Of a stretch of DNA of 64,000 bases, positions 46,590-63,822 are shown in pieces. The position numbers were made by a program, and so were the translations under genes. The stretch lies in assembly GCF_009914755.1 (NCBI RefSeq), contig NC_060932.1; one strand, 5' to 3'. Below the pieces are notes generated by a model that was not told the DNA's origin, searched no databases, and saw nothing but the letters and a program-made list of their open reading frames with translations. Each line of letters opens with the position of its first letter. The stretch's first letter is position 1. Source of the stretch: the human T2T-CHM13v2.0 reference genome, Homo sapiens.

Positions 46590-46667
46590 TCTTAATTCAT
46601 CTTTTAAACATTTTGAATTTCTTTTCGTAACTACTTTCAGATTACCCAGAGCTCCTAGGGAAACTGA

Positions 46668-47550
46668 GCCCGCACCTCGCGCGCCTCTCTGCTACTCCCA
46701 GCGAGCGCAGCTGCAGCCCGGAGACGCCGGTATCCAGCGCCAGGTCTTCCACGCCCGACCCCTCCCGGGTCTGGGGCGCTGGACACCCGTCCTCCTCCTT
46801 TCGCCGGGATTGGCCACGCTGGTAGCGTCGCGGTGTCCAGGTCAGGTGAGTGGGTCGGGCTGCCAAGGGCGCCCAGAGAGAGGACTGCTCTGCAGGGCGC
46901 AGGCGTCGCGTGTCGCCGAGGGGCGCGGCAGGGGCCGGCGGCTGGGGCTCCCTCGCGGGGTGTGTCCTGTCCCATGCTGCAGCGTCGGGTTGTCCAGGAT
47001 CTAGCAGGGCGTGGCTGGGCCTTCTGCAGGGGCCGCCGTCCATGCCCCGGGCTCGGACCACCTGCTTCTCGGCCCTTTACAGACCTCCCAGTGGCTGGGA
47101 GGGGAGGTGGGCTCAGCGGACAAATTCAGTGTCTTTCCGTTTTTGCACCCTCAAACAGGTGGGAGAAGAGGTCCGCTCCAAACCTGAGAGCGGGCCGCAC
47201 CCTCCCACCTGGGCTCTTCCTTCTAACGTCGGGGCCGAGTGGGATTCGCTTTCGCCTAGATCTCGGTGGGTCGGGCCCCGCGCCCCGGGTTTTACAGGCA
47301 GCAGGTTTAGCCTCCTGGAGACGCCGGACCTCGCAGACAGGTGCCCAACTCCAGAAACAGCCCAGAGGAAAGGGTGTTGGGGGCTTGAGGTGCATTTAGG
47401 AAGACACTTTCTGGAGGCACTTATTGACACCGTTCAGGTGTAGGCAGACCCCAAAGCAGGGGTGAGATGAGTGCCGGTTCCAGGGTGACCCAGACACGCA
47501 CAGTTCCCGAAGGGTGAAGGCGGTGCCTGGAGATATAGCCCGGCGCCCAG
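46668..47550 (+). promoter_or_regulatory. CpG island / promoter, putative 5' end of the fossil LRP-family gene
   Basis: Abrupt GC- and CpG-rich unique ~0.9 kb; consensus donor CAG|GTGAGT at 46845/46846 indicates + orientation. Confidence 0.85.
46771..46845 (+). pseudogene. Putative exon 1: signal-peptide-like segment with CTG in place of ATG
   Basis: CTG GGG CGC TGG... = (L)GRWTPVLLLSPGLATLVASRCPG; G at -3 and +4; phase-1 donor CCAG|GTCAGG (46840) or phase-0 CAG|GTGAGT (46845). Confidence 0.45.
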
Positions 47551-48564
47551 CACTTGTTAAACCACCTGGCCAGGCAGGTGCTCCTGGTTAGCCCCCTATG
47601 ATTGGAAAGTCGATTTTAAGCCATTTTAACTTATGCAGACTCTTTCTTGGTCAAGATACTGTGAACCAGTTTGGAGGGGGCGCCACTTAGCATCTGAGTT
47701 GCATCTCTTTCAGGAAGGATTCTAACCCTCCGATTTTGCTTCAGAATTTTTGCCAAACCGGGTCCAGCCTCTCTGTTGAAGCTGATCTGCCCACACCAGT
47801 TCTGAAACAGGAGTCAATGTTACTTACCTTTCTTGCTTCTACCAAGCAGTGATTTCTAACACCTTCTAGTGTGAAGACACCTTTATGATGTCTGTTTTAG
47901 AACGGCACGTAGTCATTGTACTTGGTATAGTGACAGACTATGAGAAAGCTACCAGGAATTTAATATGAAAATAAATACATTCATAAATAAATTGCTTATG
48001 TATTCACAACAAGCATTTCCTTAAATTTGGAAAGTAAGGTTTGAGACTCATCTGCAGATAATGTGTAGAATCCACATGCACTTTTGGTCCCTGGACCAAG
48101 AATCATCATTGTTCAAGTTGTCACTCACCTGATGTGAGTCTTTGAGGGCTGACTGCAACCTTGTGATCCTTCTGGGAGAATCTGTGGGAAGAGGGAGCAA
48201 AAGAGTTACTAGTTTATGAGCATTTATGTGGTGGGTATTGTGCCGAGCGGTTTTGTGCTCACTTAATTCCTGAACCTTCGTAGCGTCACTTATTTACTAC
48301 CCGCATTTTATGAACAAGAAAACTGAAGTCCAGAGAGAGGAAGGAACTCTCCCAAGGTCGCGCTTCTAGTAAGTGATCCAACTGAAACTTCAACCCAAGT
48401 AGCCTGTTGACTGAGCCTGAGCTCCCATGTTAGTTACTGACATCGACTACTCTCAGTTTAATAGTTTTCTTCAAGTCATGTGAGGTACAGATAGAATGTG
48501 AGTAGACAGCAAAGTTGTTAGCTATCCATTAAAAACTAATATTGCCTCAGTATTTTATTTTTAA

Positions 48565-48780
48565 TGGTTTTTATAAGCCAGACTTTTAAAATCAAATGAC
48601 TATCTATACTAAGTACAACTTAGTAAGAACTAAGTACTGGTTTTTTATAAGCCAGACTTTTAAAATCAAATGAGTAACTATACTAAGTACAACTTAGTAA
48701 GTAGTAAGTACTAAGTACTTAGTGGTACTACACTAAGTACCACTAAGTATTTAGTACAAGTACAACTAACTACAACTAAG
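48565..48780. repeat. 63-bp direct duplication followed by an ACTAAGTAC mosaic with a 22-bp inverted repeat
   Basis: Copies at 48565-48627 and 48638-48701; stem 48708-48729 / 48736-48757. Confidence 0.9.
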
Positions 48781-48806
48781 ACATGATCCCTTTACCAAGA
48801 TACTTG

Positions 48807-49015
48807 AACATTGGTGTTCAATGATCTGTTTGAATTTCTGCTTTCAATTCTCTAGATATAAACCAGAAGTGGAACTGCTAAGTCATATGGTAATTCTGTG
48901 TTTAACTTTTTGAGGAACCGCCAAACTGTTTTCTGTAGTGCTTGTACCATTGACAGTCTCACCAGCAGTAATTAAGTGTTTCAGTGTCTCCACATCCTCA
49001 CCAATGCCTGTTATC
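48807..49015 (-). mobile_element. Old L1 ORF2 3' fragment
   Basis: catatggtaattctgtgtttaactttttgaggaaccgccaaactgtttt. Confidence 0.8.
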
Positions 49016-49558
49016 ATCCTCTTTTGTGGGAACTGCTGGTCAACTGTAGCCTAATGAGAAAACATTAAATTTAGCATATTTCTCTTATGGAATTGAAGGG
49101 TTTCTGTCATGGAAAAAAATAGATGTTTGTTACTTCATGGCCATGTCTGAGGTACACACCTTGGCATCAGAACAGATTCTGAAATTAGAACCCACTGTAT
49201 GTTTATCCTTTCGTGTTTCTGCTAGCTGAGCTTCTCCAAGTCTTCAAGTCTCATTTCTCCTCTTTATAAAATGGGATTCTTGTGCCAGAATGGTTGAAAT
49301 AAATCTCATATATCTTCACCATTCATTAATAATGTGTAAAGGTTATGGCTGCTATTGTAGCACTTGTCCATAAAAATACAGGATGGTATTTTAGGTTAAA
49401 ATGTGATTAGGAGGTTAAAGGATTTATTGTCTTGATGCTTTGGCCTGTTCGGTAGATCAGTCTTGCCACCCTGAGCCTTAATATCAGTTACCCTTAATCA
49501 ATAGTTCCCTCTGTCTACATGGGCTCTACCTGCAGCCTTACCTATTTAGGTGGAAAGG

Positions 49559-49918
49559 TGTATTAGTCTGTTCTCACGCTGCTAATAAAGACATACCCAA
49601 GACTGGGTAATTTGTAAAGTAAAAGAGGTTTAATGGACTCACAGTTCCACATGGCCGGGGAGGCCTCACAATCACGGCAGAAGGCAAATGAGCAAAGTCA
49701 CATTTTACATGGTGGCAGGCAAGAGAGCATGTGCAGGGGAAATCCCCTTTTTAAAACCAACAGATCTCATGTCTTATTCACTATCTCCAGAACAGCACGG
49801 GAAAGACCTGCCCCCATGATTCAGTTACCTCCCACAGGGTCCCTCTCATGACACATGGGAATTATGGGAGCTACAATTCAAGATGAGATTTGGGTGGGAA
49901 CACAGCCAAACCATATCA
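49559..49918 (-). mobile_element. THE1 (THE1C-like) MaLR solo LTR
   Basis: tgtattagtctgttctcacgctgctaataaagacataccc...cagccaaaccatatca; TSD aaagg / gaagg. Confidence 0.95.
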
Positions 49919-50163
49919 GAAGGATACAAGAGAAAAGGCCCTGGTTTAATAACATGAGAGTTACAGTCAATGATGATTTTATATTGAGAATTCATCAATA
50001 AGTTTTTGTCATATTATGAATAATTATTAAGCCTATTTTGGATAAAACAACTTATTTATTCATTCTTTATTAGGAGTCTGAAGTCAGTTTCTGGTCCTGA
50101 CCCTGGAGAGGTCTGGGTTTTGTATTATACATACGCCCAGGCTCCTGCGGCATCTTTCCGCAG

Positions 50164-50256
50164 GCATCCTGCAGCATTCCGGGCCCACTGCAGGACTTGA
50201 CTGGCCACTGAACTTGACTTGTAGCCATACATTGATTATTCTCCTGGGATGGGAAG
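50164..50256 (+). pseudogene. Possible highly degraded EGF-type exon remnant
   Basis: After acceptor tctttccgcag, frame-shifted reading AHCR-LDWPLNLTCSHT-DYSPG loosely resembles the EGF that precedes a cbEGF; needs two frameshifts. Confidence 0.2.
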
Positions 50257-50838
50257 GCATCATTCTATTCTAGAACCCCATGGTTTTGGAGAAATGATGT
50301 TTTTCTGGCAATGCCCCAAGGAACCACACTTCTTTCTGCCAAACAAACAACAAACACCAAAATAAATCATTCCTGGTCCTGTGACTCATATTCTAAAGGG
50401 TCCCTGCCGTCGAGCTTTGAGAAATGATAATACTTGATCTAAATGTCACCAGTTATACCTGGGAAGCTTAAGTTGTTTCCATCACCTTGGACAGGTTGTC
50501 CCATGACACCAGTAGTGAAGTCCAGGCAGTAACATTTGTCATTCTGAGTTACACTCTGGCCAGCTTGACATGTGGCATCCCAATAAATGTTGCTAAAGTA
50601 ACATAAATCAATATTCTGTACCAGTCAAACGTCTGGGGTTCCTATACTGATGTGTCTGTTAAATTATATTCATGTGAGTGGGAACTCTATAGAGAAAGAG
50701 ACTGTCTATTCTGGCCCCTGGCTCAGTGACTTCCACATAGTACATATTCAGTGAGCATCTGGGAAGTGGCTCCGGAGAACAAAAATACTGAAAAGATTGT
50801 TCCTGGGTCCTCTCTAACTTAGGGATCTCTGTCATCAC

Positions 50839-50964
50839 ATGTAGACGAGTGCTCTCTGGCATGTGGTCCTAGCAACCGACTATGTCATGATACCCCAGGC
50901 TGTTACTCCTGTGGCTGTATTCAAGGTCACCAGCTCTACGATGGCAACAACTGTCCAGTTACAA
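50839..50964 (+). pseudogene. Pseudo-exon: calcium-binding EGF domain
   Basis: 126 nt, phase 1-1, (D)VDECSLACGPSNRLCHDTPGCYSCGCIQGHQLYDGNNCPVT; donor GTAAGT intact; acceptor position reads AC (50837-50838); Cys2 is Ser and two extra Cys are present. Confidence 0.9.
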
Positions 50965-51532
50965 GTAAGTTTCAATACTGGAGGCAAAGCCTGGCTCCTG
51001 CTCTATTCTTAGCAGTAATAGATAAAAGTGATATAGATGATTCATGTGAAAGTCTAGTATAGAAACGACTTTATTTTTTCCATAAGGAAGCTGCTATTGT
51101 AACATTCCTTGTTCTGTTTGAGGGTCAGTTGCTATTAAATGTCTTTAAAATAACGTCATCTATAAACTATAGAACTAGGTGCTCCAGAGACCCAGTCAAT
51201 ATAATCTCACCTTCTCCTGTGTTTCTTTACCACTGGGACACTTAATTACATTCAGCTACTGTGTATGAAGCATGGATAGGACTTCTGTTGAGGTGAGAGA
51301 GGAGCTGACTCTGAAACCAAGTAAGGCAGTAAAGTTCCGACGATGAGTTATAGTGTGTTGAGGTTCAGAGGAAGGAGGGGGAACTAAGGAGATCAACTAG
51401 CTTTCTTCTGCACACACAGTCCAGACTTCAGGGATAGGTAGATTTTGAGATAGGAGATGGGAAAACACCTTTAGTTAAAGGAAAAAGTGTGAAGTAAAGC
51501 TTCAAAGTAATGTGTCACTACTTCTAGTACAG

Positions 51533-51740
51533 CTGATAATGTTAAAATTCTTATAGCAGCAGATTGAAAGCTTGATGTCTTGGATCAACAAACAGGCACC
51601 TGTGAGATTCTCATATCTTTAAATTCAAGGCCAAGGTTGATTGCATATGATCTTGAGAGAAGCATGTGTATACTTCTAGGTGGATGAAGTCTTAAATGTG
51701 TTTGTCCTTGGGAAGTTGAACTCTATTCTCCTCTATCCAA
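51533..51740 (+). pseudogene. Pseudo-exon: start of a YWTD-type beta-propeller
   Basis: AG acceptor and GTATGT donor; DNVKILIAAD*KLDVLDQQTGTCEILISLNSRPRLIAYDLERSM-YF*VDEVLNVFVLGKLNSILLYP; stops at 51565 and 51677; removing a 4-nt insertion gives 204 nt, phase 1-1; IAYD...YF(W)VD fits a YWTD repeat. Confidence 0.8.
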
Positions 51741-52861
51741 GTATGTTTCTTGGTAGGAAGAGCCTTACCTTCTTCAAGCCACATAACCATAGTCTAAGAA
51801 GCATATGTATTTATCCGGACGATCTTCTTCTGTGACTCACCTGTCCTGAAGCATAAATGTATATATAATTTTGATTTGAGACTTCTATAATAACTATTGT
51901 CTAAAACTGAGGTCACATTCTCTTGGATTCCTCGGTTATGTTTCTGTTAAGGTCCTCCTCCTTCCTAATGGCCCTCTGTATGTTGGAAACACCTTAGCAC
52001 ATCTCTGGCCATTATTCCTTTTGTCCTATTTCCCTCACTGTAGTATGTGAAATTAGAAAATGCAGAAAAGTTGTGCTGTCTGTTATCCAGGCCTGTTTAT
52101 AGATGGCAGGGTTTCTGACAAGCCATCAGCATATAGTTTTCAGCTCATCTTTACATTGAGTGTGCCAGTGTCAGTGTTGTTTTTTCTTGAGCATGTTATT
52201 CATATTGAAAATTGATGCTAGAAAATACAGACGAAATTTCTAGTGAAAAATGGGAGGCTTCCAAAATTCTGTTTCAGAACTAGAGTGCATGCCTTTAAGA
52301 ACCAGTGTAGCATTGCTCAAGGAACATTCTGTGACCCTGAGCTTTCAACCTTGAATCTGTGCAGTGCCAAGGCTAAATTTATAACTCCAGAGGAAGGTGC
52401 ATGTTCTCTGCAAGTGGCAGAGCCCAACAAAGGGGTCAAACCAAATATGGCCAGCCTCATCTTAACAATTTCCAATAATTTCTAAGTCACTTCTCCTTTC
52501 CTGGGTAGGAGTAACTTCATGGATGTGGGAGTATACAGAAATGTAATTTTATGGAAGTTCCTCCATATGCAAGTGCGAGGAAATAGTAAAGAAATTCTCC
52601 CACTCTAACACCCAGTATGTAGGAAGAATTTTACAGCATGTCAAGCCCTGGGGGTATCAGCGTCCTCATTCTGCTACTCCAGCCCCACCTTCATGCTTTG
52701 CCTGTTTGTCAACATCCCTGGTAGTTAATATTTGAGTTCTTACTATAATACCTATTGATGTGCTGGGAAATGTTTAACAATCAGCTCTCTGGGAAAAAAA
52801 TATGTGCACATATATACCTACATCTGTTTATAATTAAGTGTACTGTATAAAGGATATGTAA

Positions 52862-53543
<682 letters not shown>

Positions 53544-53968
53544 ATGATATTTGTTATTACAAATTTCATATAGCTAACTGATTTTCACAGACTGCTTTTT
53601 TATTTGGAATTCTTAGATCAGAAGCCAATCTATGGTTACAATTCAAGATTTAACAAAAGCGATGAATAAGTGCTTGATTACTATCTGAGTAGGCAAAGAA
53701 GTCAGTGCGTGAGTGTTCTTGACATGAATGTTTTTTGATGATTTTATTTCCATAAACAAGTGAGATGAAAGTGAAGCAATGAAGACTTGTGGGAATTAGT
53801 CCATCAGTGACATAAATGACTTCTTTGCTGAACTGGATAATAGATTTCAAATACTATGGCAATATTTCCTCAATTTTTTATGGTATTTAAAATTTAATGG
53901 TTATAGACACAATACACATATATTTAGTCTGCCTCATTAATACTTCACCACTTCCTTTAAGTCTAGAC

Positions 53969-54162
53969 TAGGGATTGGCCAACTTTTTCTCCAAAAGGTC
54001 AGATAGTAAATATTTTAGGCTTGGTGGATTCTCTGCCATTGTCTCACAGAATTAGCCATTGATAACATGTGAGTGAATGGCCATAGCTTTACTCTGCTAA
54101 AACTTTACAAAAACAGGCATTAGGCTGAGTTTGGCTCAAGGGCCATTGTTTGCCATTTCCTG
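53969..54162. mobile_element. MER58A hAT-Charlie MITE
   Basis: aaaggtcagatagtaaatattttaggctt motif; 8-bp TSD gtctagac / gtctagaa. Confidence 0.85.
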
Positions 54163-54429
54163 GTCTAGAAATCAAAATGAAAAAAAAAAAAAAAATGAAA
54201 TCCCCGTTTGTAGTGTTTGCCAATTATCAGGGTGTAAATACTCCCACGATGCCAGATTTCAAGCTCCCAATGTAACATTAAACATACAATTGGGAAGGAA
54301 TGTGCAGTAGCAAACCTTGACATGGCATTTCCACCATATGCACACAAAAGACACAATTAAATGGGACCCATGCTTTCTCCCATCATAGGTGACTTGTTCA
54401 GTATTAGTTAATAAGAACTTGACTCTTAG

Positions 54430-54959
54430 GGTTGCAAAGTCTGAGTCTTCTCTTTTTTTCTTTTTTTTGAGACAGAGTCTCACTCTATCGCCCATGCTGG
54501 AGTGCAGTGGCGTGATCTCGGCTCACTGCAACCTCCGCTTCCTGGGTTCAAGTGATTCTCCTGCCTCAGCCTCCTGAGTAGCTGGGACTATAGGCACCCA
54601 CCACCATGCCCAGCTAATTTTTGTATTTTTAGTAGAGACGGGGTTTCACCATGTTGGCCAGGATGGTCTCAATCTCTTGACTTTGTGATCTGCCCACCTC
54701 GGCCTCCCAAAATGTTGAGATTACAGGCGTGAGCCACTGCGCCCAGGTAGTCTGAGTCTTCTAAGAAATAGAAATAAAACACACTCTTTAAACAAATCCT
54801 GGAGCAACGGGATTAGAGGAGCCTACGAGTCCTACCTGGTGACTATGGACAAAGCCGCTCTTGTGCTGTGGAACAAGAGGACGCAGCAGCCTTCTCGGTG
54901 TTGAAAGAGCCATATATAAAGAAAATGATCATCTTGGCAGACAACCAGGAGGTGGCCAG
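54430..54959 (+). pseudogene. Pseudo-exon (putative propeller C-terminal region) split by an Alu
   Basis: Acceptor cttgactcttAG; removing the Alu and one TSD gives [72 protein letters not shown] with a frameshift near 54891; 3' boundary uncertain. Confidence 0.6.
54452..54748 (-). mobile_element. AluSc-type element inside the pseudo-exon
   Basis: Perfect TSD agtctgagtcttct (54438-54451 / 54749-54762); ggatggtctcaatctcttgac and 2-bp deletion diagnostics. Confidence 0.95.
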
Positions 54960-55379
54960 CTAGCCTTCCTCTGTGGGGTTATTCTTTGAGATCCACTTTA
55001 CCTGTCTCTTTTCAGTGTGTTTTTCTAGGATAAAATCCTGGGCATCTTTATGTTTGCACTGGCAGTGGTCCCAACCCACAATTCTTCAGGCCTTCTCTCT
55101 AAGTTGTCTATGTTCTGGAAATTTCCCAAAGGCTAAAGTTAGTAGGCTGGGAAGGAAAAAACTCCTTGCCCAAATTCACTGTGAGTTGATGATAGGCTAA
55201 CGTACCACACTTAACCTAAGGATCCAGGCTTTGGGTCAGTTGCACATTTTCTTCCTGTGAGATAGAAAAATGTATGTACGCAGCCATGACGTGATTTTCT
55301 GAAGGAGGGGGACAGTAGGGGCACGTGCCCATTGCTGGAACCTACTGGACTGACTTGCTGAAGCAGCTGTTTGCTTTGG

Positions 55380-55579
55380 ATCCCGGGGTTGAAGGAGCAG
55401 CCCCAACCACCGCTCCTGCTCCTCCCGCTCCTCCTCCGTCACATGTGCTTTGCATCCATCCTCTGTTCCCTGTGGGAACGGGGAGGAACGTGTTTCTTGG
55501 GAGCACCTCCATGATGGCACATGCACCTGTCAGGATGGCTCAGATAAAGAGTGATCCTCCCAGTCCTGCCACAGGCCAG
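55380..55579 (+). pseudogene. Pseudo-exon: Pro/Ala linker plus LDL-receptor class A repeat
   Basis: DPGVEGAAPTTAPAPPAPPPSHVLCI-SSVPCGNGEERVSWEHLHDGTCTCQDGSDKE*SSQSCHRPG; stop at 55552; 200 nt (+1 restores 201, phase 1-1); acceptor position reads GG; GT donor at 55580. Confidence 0.8.
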
Positions 55580-56085
55580 GTCTGCCACCGTCTTCTCTTC
55601 TCAGGCTTCTGTCCAGGCACATTGACTCAGCTTTGAGTGCATGGTATGAATTTCCTGAGTGTTTACTATGATCATACTAACTGTCCCTAGACAAATTAAT
55701 GTGGATGAAAGCCATCGCATGTCAGAATACTGAATCTGTGCGTGTTTGTTTTATCACAATTAAGTGTTTTACCAGGTATAACTTGAGGGGCAAAGAGAAC
55801 TCACAATGCGGCCCTGAATGAGTCGGAGTTCCCCTCAGTTTTTCTTAAGCCATCCAACATCTGAACTCCTAGGCTTCTAAAACCATCCTTATCCATGAAG
55901 AAAGAATCTCCAGTCATTCAGTATCTAGTTGAGTAAAAGGAATTAAATTGAAGAGCAATCTAATTTGGGGAAAACATTTGGGTCCCGTAACTCTGATAAT
56001 GTATTTGCAAGAAGTTTGCAGAAGACCTTTAAGAAACCTAATAACTCAGTATGCTTTTCAGGGAGGTGGTGGGAATATTCCACAG

Positions 56086-56324
56086 GTAGTAACAGGTGCT
56101 CAAAAGACCATGGAGGATGTGGCCATATTTGTATCCCAGACCCTGAAGGACAGATTCTTAGATGTCCCAGGGAGTCCTACGAGGCTGATGCAAACACATG
56201 CACTGGAGCCGTTGTCTGCTTGGCACCGTCACATCCTGTAAGGATGCTCAGACATGCATTTCCATGGGGCAAGTTTATGATGGTCCTGCTGACTGTGTGG
56301 ATGCATCTGGTAACATGGGCTGGA
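56086..56324 (+). pseudogene. Pseudo-exon: EGF repeat plus LDL-receptor class A repeat
   Basis: ttccacAG acceptor, GTAATT donor; GSNRCSKDHGGCGHICIPDPEGQILRCPRESYEADANTCTGAVVCLAPS-SCKDAQTCISMGQVYDGPADCVDASGNMGW; 239 nt (+1 restores 240, phase 1-1). Confidence 0.9.
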
Positions 56325-63131: not shown

Positions 63132-63441
63132 GAAATATTCTAGAAGACAGGGTGAATTTGTTCCAGATGGTATTCCCTCTGAAAGAATCTGTTAGCCTGG
63201 CAAAGAGTAGATGACAAGGTTGACTCAGGGTTACTCCGTTGTACCACCAGCTGCTTCTTGGCCTTACCACCCGATTCTAGAAAGAGAAGCAAAACTAGCT
63301 GGTAGTAAGACTGAGACGCCCACCTGTTTTCACATTTTCTCTAGTGGAAACTTGAAGTTGTTCCTTCTGCCTAAAAGGCTCCTCTCTCTCTTCTTTCAGT
63401 TCTCTGCCCAAGTACCTCCTTCTTCTTGACCACTTTTCCTA

Positions 63442-63822
<381 letters not shown>

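What the first reader, a model, noticed from the sequence alone, without database searches (positions are those of the whole stretch)
46771..56324. Fossil intron-containing LDL-receptor-family (LRP-like) gene, a candidate unitary pseudogene
Seen in sequence: five colinear + strand segments in unique DNA between repeats. They read as a cbEGF (DVDEC...CGC..GH.L.DG..C), a YWTD-type repeat (IAYD....YF[W]VD), a further propeller-like stretch, a Pro linker plus LDLa (C.DGSD.E), and an EGF (N.C...HGGCGHICIP.P.G...RCP) plus LDLa. Four restore to lengths divisible by 3 with phase 1-1 boundaries (126, 204, 201, 240 nt) and keep GT donors. Disablements: three in-frame stops, at least four frameshifts, two mutated acceptors, lost cysteines and an Alu insertion. 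Established knowledge: LDLa + EGF + YWTD in phase-1 exons is the LDLR/LRP family architecture. Inference: introns and a CpG-island 5' end exclude retrocopying. The peptides do not look to me like any functional human LRP, so this may be the dead orthologue of a receptor intact elsewhere. From memory only, they recall predicted 'LRP2-like' / LRP13-type receptors of non-primate vertebrates, some of which bind vitellogenin. Loss of a yolk or lipoprotein uptake receptor would be an evolutionarily interesting gene loss.
Basis: partly seen in the sequence, partly recalled or inferred. Interest (0 to 1): 0.92.

Follow-up and report, generated by a model that had tools for sequence, protein, structure and literature searches.

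The report
Dead human LRP13 lipoprotein-receptor gene
This stretch of human chromosome 8 holds the eroded remains of a large LDL-receptor-family gene (LRP13, a yolk-protein receptor in fish) that is still intact in rodents, dogs, bats, whales and most other vertebrates but has been lost in our lineage.

Summary
Six colinear + strand exon remnants (46771-56321) match intact ~2,100-aa LDLR-family proteins of rodents, carnivores, bats, ungulates, whales, armadillo, platypus, reptiles, birds and amphibians at 55-63% identity. A profile of 32 orthologues gave 8 hits in 84 kb, all + strand and colinear; 20 orthologues gave 142 of 142 HSPs in the locus, reversed queries gave 0. The family includes the records a 2025 paper calls lrp13 (Pelodiscus, Protopterus) and 'Predicted gene 19410' (mouse Gm19410); that paper lists lrp13 for mouse and chicken but not human. 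Disablements: ATG to CTG, four in-frame stops, four frameshifts, an Alu with a 14-bp target duplication inside an exon, broken splice sites and lost cysteines. Deletions have removed about 83% of the coding sequence. No better copy exists elsewhere in the human assembly, and a tree places the human sequence with rodents on a very long branch. So it is an old, intron-containing unitary pseudogene. Synteny rests on one over-extended mole gene model running into antisense CLDN23. No primate appears among 117 organism-named orthologue clusters, but the timing was not tested directly. Existing GENCODE annotation could not be checked.

The parts
46640..47360 (.). CpG island at the ancestral 5' end (promoter and first exon)
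   Evidence: GC 0.677, 61 CpG, observed/expected 0.74, against 0.24 for the whole window. It is the only run of 200-bp windows in the window with GC>=0.55 and o/e>=0.65.
46771..46845 (+). Exon 1 remnant (signal peptide); start codon is now CTG
   Evidence: The human translation from LGRW to LLLSPGLATL aligns by eye with orthologue N-termini MGR.ALLLLLSP.LAALGSLGGSG. The upstream 5'UTR-like part matches N-terminally extended horse and armadillo models (tblastn E 0.003-0.05). CTG lies at 46771-73 and GTGAGT follows 46845. This is the weakest of the six exons: the profile HMM did not detect it.
50839..50964 (+). Exon A: calcium-binding EGF that precedes propeller 1 (orthologue aa about 263-303)
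   Evidence: HMM i-E 7.3e-16 at profile positions 261-304. tblastn identity up to 75.6%. The frame is open and the exon is 126 nt. The acceptor reads AC and the donor GTAAGT. One canonical Cys is replaced: orthologue GPCGQLC reads GPSNRLC in human.
51533..51740 (+). Exon B: first YWTD blade of propeller 1 (aa about 303-373)
   Evidence: HMM i-E 4.8e-07 and 0.0031 at profile positions 317-373. Stop TGA at 51565-67, 4-nt insertion TGTA at 51667-70, and stop TAG at 51677-79 where orthologues have W. Acceptor AG, donor GTATGT; 208 nt = 204 + 4.
54408..54951 (+). Exon C: last blade of propeller 2 (aa about 775-850), split by an Alu
   Evidence: HMM i-E 1.2e-13 and 8.2e-04 at profile positions 784-851. 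An Alu at 54452-54748 is flanked by an identical 14-bp duplication at 54438-51 and 54749-62. With the Alu removed the frame reads LGLQSLSLL, as in orthologues. Stop TGA at 54420-22 and a 1-nt deletion at 54890-91. The 5' boundary and the donor (GTGGCC) are inferred.
55367..55579 (+). Exon D: Pro-rich linker plus the first LDLa of the second ligand-binding cluster (aa about 853-919)
   Evidence: HMM i-E 5.6e-06 at profile positions 867-907. tblastn identity up to 63%. 1-nt deletion at 55460-61 and stop TGA at 55552-54. Two Cys are lost: ECIS reads ERVS and LCDG reads LHDG. Donor GTCTGC.
56086..56321 (+). Exon E: post-propeller EGF plus the single membrane-proximal LDLa, the '+1' repeat (aa about 1808-1900)
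   Evidence: PDB search: LRP4 E 1.2e-11, LRP6 E 7.5e-08. HMM i-E 8.4e-15 and 1.4e-07. The intact orthologous ORF P0002 matches with tblastn E 1.2e-23, including upstream intron. 1-nt deletion at 56232-33. Cys changed to Leu, Tyr and Trp. The donor reads GG.
63357..63455 (+). Conserved block downstream of the pseudogene, matched by the C-terminal over-extension of one orthologue gene model
   Evidence: Residues 78-110 of the 196-aa extension of P0085 (Galemys): tblastn E 6.3e-05, 54.5% identity. A second block at 67096-67209, outside the window, has E 1e-06 and is antisense to the CLDN23 CDS at 67101-67979.

Best explanation
The locus is the unitary, unprocessed pseudogene of the human orthologue of LRP13 (also called LRX+1). 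Mouse-derived annotation names the gene 'predicted gene 19410', i.e. Gm19410.

The ancestral gene encoded a type I membrane receptor of about 2,100 aa in the LDL-receptor family. Its parts, in order, were: a signal peptide, 5 LDLa repeats, EGF modules, two YWTD propellers, 7 LDLa repeats, EGF modules, two more propellers, an EGF, one further LDLa, a Ser/Thr/Pro-rich stalk, an EGF, a transmembrane helix and a short tail.

In the human lineage the gene was inactivated and has decayed without constraint. The start codon is lost. Four stops, four frameshifts and an exonic Alu disrupt the surviving exons. Deletions removed the exons for roughly aa 75-260, 375-770, 920-1805 and 1900-2100. About 17% of the coding sequence remains in a 9.6-kb span, so no receptor can be made.

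Shown here: homology, colinearity, the disablements, the absence of another copy in this assembly, and the placement of the human sequence among placental orthologues. Inferred: the exact exon boundaries, the age of the loss, and what the receptor did in the mammalian ancestor.
For: (1) Intact relatives exist. An unnamed 115-aa ORF (P0002) is the intact counterpart of exon E. Searching with it, and then with a vole protein, gave 986 hits. The best 120 are mostly 2,050-2,170-aa proteins from rodents, carnivores, bats, perissodactyls, cetartiodactyls, eulipotyphlans, armadillo, platypus, turtles, squamates, birds and amphibians, plus longer fish forms.

(2) The exons are colinear. Every full-length query maps about aa 263-303, 303-373, 784-850, 873-913 and 1808-1895 to 50.8, 51.5, 54.7, 55.5 and 56.1 kb, in that order.

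(3) Controls. A profile HMM of 32 orthologues was run against 4,413 six-frame ORFs from 84 kb. It gave 8 hits with i-E<5, all + strand and colinear; the next best hit has i-E 8.3. Twenty orthologues gave 142 of 142 HSPs (E<1e-3) on the + strand inside 46.7-56.4 kb, and the reversed queries gave 0.

(4) The disablements were read directly from the sequence.

(5) It is unitary. In the whole human assembly the best match to P0002 is this locus (E 4.9e-17). The next best are at chr12:12.03 Mb, chr2:141.2 Mb, chr2:169.7 Mb and chr11:47.0 Mb (E 1e-6 or worse), which I recall as LRP6, LRP1B, LRP2 and LRP4. With a full-length squirrel orthologue, the two hits in this locus have the highest identities (57% and 61%) of 24 hits.

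(6) Tree. On 356 columns and 40 taxa the human sequence falls inside placentals (UFBoot 89) and with 13 rodents (UFBoot 88). Its terminal branch is 0.516, against 0.03-0.28 for other placentals.

(7) Name. PMC11772764 Table S1 lists lrp13 for gar, coelacanth, lungfish, newts, turtle (XP_025041567.1, 2060 aa), chicken and mouse (XP_006509297.1, 2104 aa), but not for Homo sapiens. P0103 and P0160 match the turtle and lungfish entries in species and length.

(8) Architecture. Intact orthologues have 12 Ldl_recept_a stretches, Ldl_recept_b, FXa_inhibition-type EGF, cEGF and EGF_CA. One LDLa follows the last post-propeller EGF. That is the '+1' feature described for Lrp13.
Against: Synteny is shown only indirectly and for one species, through the over-extended Galemys model P0085. 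I could not fetch any vertebrate genome other than the human one.

Teleost lrp13 is reported next to rchy1, smad2, tia1 and upb1, not mfhas1 or cldn23, so the fish neighbourhood does not match.

Exon 1 rests on a short, GC-rich alignment that the profile HMM did not detect.

The equation of 'Gm19410' with mouse lrp13 rests on the name of an Apodemus record, not on a mouse sequence.

Pfam alone gave only sub-threshold hits on the human ORFs and none for the YWTD pieces.

UFBoot 88-89 is good but not decisive.
Confidence: 0.93

Rival explanations
1. The protein-coding gene is dead, but the locus still works as a non-coding unit: the preserved CpG island drives an unannotated transcript or acts as a regulatory element. 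This adds to the pseudogene call rather than replacing it.
For: The CpG island over the former first exon keeps CpG observed/expected 0.74, against 0.24 for the window. The coding exons on the same branch carry the long terminal branch of 0.516. From general knowledge, CpG islands that become methylated in the germ line decay quickly.
Against: RefSeq annotates no gene in the window and places its enhancers elsewhere, at 16.9-17.4 and 33.4-33.9 kb (hub annotation). I have no expression, methylation or conservation data.
Confidence: 0.25
2. It is a duplicated, non-unitary pseudogene copied from a functional human LRP gene such as LRP2, LRP1B or LRP4.
For: Databases call the relatives 'LRP2-like', 'LRP1-like' or 'LRP4-like'. 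The EGF of exon E matches human LRP4 and LRP6 chains in the PDB.
Against: Identity to those human paralogues is about 50% in the EGF only. The cbEGF and LDLa pieces gave no significant LRP hit in the PDB. Identity to placental orthologues is 55-63% over 347 residues. The human genome search found no closer copy. The tree places the sequence among placental orthologues in species-tree position.
Confidence: 0.01
3. The matches are chance resemblances of Cys-rich or low-complexity ORFs.
For: Each Pfam hit is below its curated cut-off. An exact YWTD at 55343 turned out to be an intronic chance match.
Against: E-values down to 1e-23, strict colinearity, strand specificity and zero hits with reversed queries.
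Confidence: 0.005
4. The large gaps are a deletion allele or assembly peculiarity of this one genome in the rearrangement-prone 8p23.1 region, and other humans carry a more complete or intact gene.
For: The window lies in the 8p23.1 inversion region, and only one assembly was examined.
Against: The surviving exons already carry 4 stops, 4 frameshifts, a lost start codon and an exonic Alu, and sit on a branch of 0.516 substitutions per site. That points to long neutral decay, not a recent event. The human proteome list in PMC11772764 has no lrp13.
Confidence: 0.02

Closest known systems
Lrp13 / LRX+1 of teleosts (vitellogenin receptor of white perch, striped bass, trout, eel, mullet)
   Same: Same LDLR-family module set, and the hallmark single LDLa between the last EGF and the membrane. 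Exon E (EGF plus LDLa) matches that position. Unnamed short ORFs found with exon E (P0016, P0018, P0021, P0028, P0030) show the same EGF-LDLa unit, and P0030 continues into a Ser-rich stretch, an EGF and a transmembrane segment. Carp 'Si:dkey-88l16.3' is in the hit list.
   Different: Teleost proteins described in print are 1,234-1,373 aa with one propeller region. Tetrapod and lungfish forms are about 2,060-2,450 aa with four. Vitellogenin binding is shown only in fish (PMC4651544 passages). The teleost gene neighbourhood differs.
Mouse Gm19410 and the predicted 'LRP2-like / pro-LRP1-like' proteins of other placentals
   Same: Direct orthologues: 55-63% identity over 347 residues, the same exon order, and the expected phylogenetic position.
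   Different: They are intact at about 2,100 aa; the human copy keeps about 17% of the coding sequence and is disabled. Gm19410 is used as a marker of layer-5 extratelencephalic cortical neurons in mouse (PMC12868666, one passage). Nothing comparable can exist in human.
Classical human unitary pseudogenes (GULO and others in Zhang et al. 2010, PMC2864566)
   Same: Unprocessed, no functional paralogue in the genome, functional orthologue in mouse, decayed in place.
   Different: This locus does not appear in the main text of that paper: 0 occurrences of lipoprotein, LDL or Lrp, and none of its chr8 entries is at this place. It is also absent from Zhu et al. 2007. It is far more eroded by deletion than most listed examples.
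Human LRP4, LRP5/6 and LRP2 (functional paralogues)
   Same: They share the post-propeller EGF motif GGC.H.C..P.G...C.CP and the LDLa and YWTD modules.
   Different: Different genes at other loci, with lower identity, and none has the LRP13 arrangement.

Membership tests
LDL-receptor family | LDLa, EGF / calcium-binding EGF and YWTD (Ldl_recept_b) modules in one chain | tested here: met
   The human remnants match a cbEGF, two YWTD-blade exons, two LDLa and a post-propeller EGF of orthologues. The orthologues score Ldl_recept_a 1e-104 (12 stretches), Ldl_recept_b 8e-43, FXa_inhibition 2e-37, cEGF and EGF_CA. On the human ORFs alone, Pfam is sub-threshold.
LRP13 / LRX+1 orthogroup | A single LDLa repeat after the last post-propeller EGF, near the membrane ('+1') | tested here: met
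   Exon E encodes the EGF followed by that LDLa. In orthologues it lies at about aa 1850-1905, before the stalk, an EGF and the transmembrane helix. The feature is described in PMC12480657.
LRP13 / LRX+1 orthogroup | Closest relatives are sequences that the literature calls lrp13 | tested here: met
   P0103 (Pelodiscus, 2060 aa, XP_02504156...) and P0160 (Protopterus, 2155 aa) match lrp13 entries of PMC11772764 Table S1 in species and length. Carp Si:dkey-88l16.3 is also present. The accession in my output is truncated, so the match is by species, length and accession prefix.
LRP13 / LRX+1 orthogroup | Binds vitellogenin | not testable with these tools
   Shown for fish receptors only. The human gene cannot make a protein.
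Unitary (unprocessed) pseudogene | Disabling mutations in the coding sequence | tested here: met
   ATG changed to CTG, 4 stops, 4 frameshifts, an exonic Alu, AC acceptor, GG donor, and about 83% of the coding sequence absent.
Unitary (unprocessed) pseudogene | Keeps introns and its own promoter region (not a retrocopy) | tested here: met
   The exons are separated by 0.4-3.9 kb, four GT donors are kept, and a CpG island lies at exon 1.
Unitary (unprocessed) pseudogene | No functional copy or parent gene in the same genome | tested here: met
   Whole-assembly searches with P0002 and P0062 were run. One search used a stricter first look, so weak matches may be missing, but an intact orthologue would score strongly.
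Unitary (unprocessed) pseudogene | Functional orthologue in other species at the syntenic place | tested here: inconclusive
   Intact orthologues are abundant. Their position is supported only by the Galemys model, which runs from the LRP13 C-terminus into sequence antisense to CLDN23 (E 1e-06). No other vertebrate genome could be read. The microsynteny PDF of PMC11772764 was unreadable.

The most novel reading that the evidence does not exclude
LRP13 was lost early on the primate stem, so that all primates lack it, while most other placental orders keep it under constraint even though mammals have no vitellogenin. The receptor would then have a non-yolk role in mammals. In mouse it marks layer-5 extratelencephalic cortical neurons. 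Primates would have dispensed with that role, and the old promoter CpG island would have survived as an active non-coding element.
Probability: 0.4. Interest if true: 0.65.

Novelty: new member of a known kind. Interest (0 to 1): 0.55.

Why it matters
It adds a large, ancient member of the LDL-receptor family to the list of genes that humans have lost but mouse, rat, dog and pig retain. That matters for translating lipoprotein-receptor and cortical-neuron work from those models: mouse Gm19410 has no human counterpart.

It also explains why comparative surveys list 15 LDLR-family genes in vertebrates but only 14 in human, by showing where the fifteenth lies and how it died.

Finally, it raises an evolutionary question that can be tested. 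A receptor known as a vitellogenin receptor in fish is conserved in yolk-less placentals yet dispensable in our lineage. What does it bind in mammals?

Tried and rejected
**Pfam on the human ORFs.** On 141 stop-free ORFs it gave only sub-threshold hits and nothing for the YWTD pieces.

**Word-index protein search.** A search with the human exon-E ORF (243-2000 aa candidates) found nothing. The full HMMER scan was needed to find P0002.

**The YWTD at 55343-55354.** This exact motif looked like a propeller blade, but it lies just upstream of the inferred acceptor of exon D and has no counterpart in orthologues. I treat it as a chance match.

**Search for more exon remnants.** I looked for N-terminal LDLa repeats, the missing propellers, and the transmembrane and tail exons, using sensitive tblastn and the profile HMM over the window plus 10 kb on each side. 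None was found: the next hits have i-E>=8.3 and are scattered on both strands.

**N-terminal extensions of orthologue models.** The extensions of P0085, P0071, P0081 and others gave no match near MFHAS1. P0087 gave one weak, non-colinear GC-rich hit at 46973-47227, which I disregard. Pfam found no LRR or Roc domain in the extended models.

**Literature.** No paper holds both Gm19410 and Mfhas1, and none holds XP_006509297. 'Unitary pseudogene' plus 'lipoprotein receptor' gave 4 irrelevant papers. A search for MFHAS1, CLDN23, pseudogene and LDL receptor gave nothing relevant. A whole-word search on Lrp13, pseudogene, primates and gene loss listed no paper holding Lrp13 among the 15 shown. Reading et al. 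2014 (PMC4617131), the founding Lrp13 paper, is not held. What it says about mouse, dog and human is therefore not seen.

Full report
**What is in the sequence.** The window is human chr8p23.1, between MFHAS1 and CLDN23 (hub annotation). Pfam on 141 stop-free ORFs from 45.9-57.5 kb gave only sub-threshold hits, but of the right kinds and in the right order. These were EGF_CA (E 0.0025) at 50.8 kb, FXa_inhibition-type EGF (7.5e-4) and Ldl_recept_a (0.0073) at 56.1-56.3 kb. Nothing was found for the YWTD pieces. Against PDB sequences, the EGF at 56.1 kb matched LRP4 (E 1.2e-11) and LRP6 (7.5e-8) at the EGF that follows each YWTD propeller. The cbEGF matched generic calcium-binding EGFs (1e-3). 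The two LDLa pieces gave weak matches to LDLa modules only (E 0.04-0.5).

**Finding the intact gene.** A full HMMER scan of 1.84 billion representatives with the exon-E peptide returned 32 hits. One of them, P0002, is an unnamed 115-aa open frame that reads straight through an EGF and an LDLa. It also matches the human sequence upstream of the exon, in what is intron (tblastn E 1.2e-23). Using P0002, and then a vole protein, as query in the named protein collection gave 22 and 986 hits. The best 120 of the latter are mostly 2,050-2,170-aa proteins of 12 LDLa repeats plus EGF and YWTD modules. They come from many rodents, squirrel, beaver, rhinoceros, horse family, cats, dogs, seals, mustelids, bats, camels, pig, whales, hedgehog, moles, armadillo, platypus, turtles, lizards, snakes, birds, frogs, caecilians, a newt and a lungfish, plus longer fish forms.

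**Mapping and controls.** Every full-length orthologue maps to the window in the same order. Residues at about 263-303 map to 50841-50963, 303-373 to 51529-51745, 784-850 to 54749-54954, 873-913 to 55459-55581, and 1808-1895 to 56076-56320. I built a profile HMM from 32 orthologues and ran it against all 4,413 six-frame ORFs of at least 12 aa in the window plus 10 kb on each side. It gave eight hits with i-E below 5. All are on the + strand and colinear in both genome and profile; the next hit has i-E 8.3. Twenty orthologues gave 142 HSPs at E<1e-3, and 142 of 142 lie on the + strand inside 46.7-56.4 kb. The same 20 sequences reversed gave 0.

A sixth piece is the former first exon, at 46771-46845 inside the only CpG island of the window. 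It aligns with orthologue signal peptides (MGR.ALLLLLSP.LAALG) and with the 5' extensions of two models. This piece is the least secure.

**How the gene is broken**.
- Exon 1: the start codon reads CTG.
- Exon A (126 nt): the frame is open, but the acceptor reads AC and one structural cysteine is replaced.
- Exon B: TGA at 51565, a 4-nt insertion at 51667-70, and TAG at 51677 in place of the Trp of YFWVD. Without the insertion it is 204 nt, and its AG and GT are intact.
- Exon C: an Alu at 54452-54748 with a perfect 14-bp target-site duplication. Removing it restores LGLQSLSLL as in the orthologues. The exon also has a TGA at 54420 and a 1-nt deletion.
- Exon D: a 1-nt deletion, TGA at 55552 and two lost cysteines.
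- Exon E: a 1-nt deletion, three lost cysteines and a GG donor.

Nothing remains of roughly aa 75-260, 375-770, 920-1805 and 1900-2100. Only about 360 of 2,105 profile positions (17%) survive, within 9.6 kb. The exon boundaries are inferred from protein alignments and splice motifs, because orthologue gene structures were not available.

**What the gene is.** PMC11772764 (abstract, sections 5 and 8, and Table S1 read) treats LRP13, also called LRX+1, as the fifteenth member of the vertebrate LDLR family. Its Table S1 lists lrp13 for gar, coelacanth, lungfish (2155 aa), two newts, softshell turtle (XP_025041567.1, 2060 aa), chicken (2417 aa) and mouse (XP_006509297.1, 2104 aa). It does not list it for Homo sapiens or Xenopus tropicalis. 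My hit list contains the turtle record (2060 aa, accession prefix XP_02504156) and a 2155-aa lungfish record. It also contains carp 'Si:dkey-88l16.3', the name that PMC12480657 gives for lrp13, and an Apodemus record named 'Predicted gene, 19410', i.e. mouse Gm19410.

The defining '+1' LDLa next to the membrane is the LDLa of exon E. In fish, Lrp13 binds vitellogenin Aa (PMC4651544, passages). In mouse, Gm19410 is used as a marker of layer-5 extratelencephalic neurons (PMC12868666, one passage).

**Unitary and orthologous.** In the whole human assembly, the best match to P0002 is this locus (E 4.9e-17). The others are at chr12:12.03 Mb, chr2:141.2 Mb, chr2:169.7 Mb, chr11:47.0 Mb, chr13:112.4 Mb and chr1:53.2 Mb, with E 1e-6 or worse. 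I recall these places as LRP6, LRP1B, LRP2, LRP4, the F7/F10 region and LRP8; no call named them. With a full-length squirrel orthologue, 24 hits were reported. The two in this locus have the highest identities (57% and 61%), and the rest are 27-55% at paralogue loci. That search used a stricter first look, so weak hits may be missing.

Over 347 aligned residues the human remnant is 55-63% identical to placental orthologues, 45% to platypus and 37-41% to sauropsids and amphibians. Intact placentals are 64-83% identical to each other in the same columns. A maximum-likelihood tree (LG+G4, 40 taxa, 356 columns) places the human sequence within placentals (UFBoot 89) and with the 13 rodents (UFBoot 88). 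That is the position expected for a vertically inherited primate gene. Its terminal branch is 0.516 substitutions per site, against 0.03-0.28 for other placentals.

**Synteny.** I could not read any other vertebrate genome. One indirect piece of evidence exists. The Galemys gene model P0085 runs 196 aa past the normal C-terminus. That extension matches the human + strand at 63357-63455 (E 6e-5) and at 67096-67209 (E 1e-6). The second block is antisense to the 3' end of the CLDN23 coding sequence at 67101-67979. This puts CLDN23 tail-to-tail just downstream of the intact gene in that species, as in human. The reported teleost neighbourhood (rchy1, smad2, tia1, upb1) is different.

**Age.** The branch length and the extent of deletion point to a long period without constraint. 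By my own rough calculation, marked as inference, 0.5 amino-acid substitutions per site is at least what full neutrality since the primate-rodent split would give. The estimate is inflated by alignment error near the frameshifts. Of the 120 listed clusters, 117 carry an organism name and none is a primate. The same is true of the 22 hits. Lagomorphs, tree shrews, afrotherians and marsupials are also absent from the list, so absence alone is weak evidence. Shared mutations in primate genomes were not examined.

**Prior knowledge.** Human absence of lrp13 is implicit in Table S1 of PMC11772764. I found no paper that describes the remnant. The main texts of two human gene-loss surveys do not mention it (PMC2134963 and PMC2864566). 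The targeted searches found nothing. RefSeq annotates no gene in the window. I could not check GENCODE pseudogene tracks, the founding Lrp13 paper (not held) or the microsynteny PDF of PMC11772764 (unreadable). Any of these could reduce the novelty.

**Verdict.** This is a real, well-supported, ancient unitary pseudogene of LRP13.

Noticed in passing
window 46640-47360: The CpG island over the dead gene's first exon is still strong (GC 0.68, CpG o/e 0.74, 61 CpG) and is the only one in the window, although the coding exons have decayed. It may still be an active promoter or regulatory element.
   Followed up: partly
window 55343-55354: An exact YWTD in an open frame lies just upstream of exon D. 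It has no counterpart in orthologues and sits in the inferred intron, so it is a chance match that could mislead a motif-based reading.
   Followed up: yes
window 63357-63455 and L009 3096-3209 (window 67096-67209): Two blocks downstream of the pseudogene are conserved with the spurious C-terminal extension of a Pyrenean desman gene model (P0085). The second is antisense to the end of the CLDN23 coding sequence.
   Followed up: partly
orthologue proteins P0062, P0059, P0074, P0064 (C-termini): In the four placental orthologues checked, the short cytoplasmic tail lacks a canonical NPxY. It carries a conserved ETFVNEAYDEQE..LTSLQT(D/E) end, where FVNEAY resembles FxNPxY without the proline. This may bear on how the receptor is internalised.
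   Followed up: no
one search hit list: Cyprinid, clupeid and characiform relatives are 2,750-3,290 aa, and a carp one has 40 LDLa stretches. That is far larger than the 1,234-1,373-aa teleost Lrp13 described in print, so 'lrp13' in fish may cover very different gene models or paralogues.
   Followed up: no
window 48540-48790: An AT-rich block contains a near-exact direct duplication (wording '...ttttataagccagacttttaaaatcaaatga...', seen twice about 80 bp apart) followed by short 'agtac/ctaagta' repeats. It lies in the first intron of the pseudogene.
   Followed up: no
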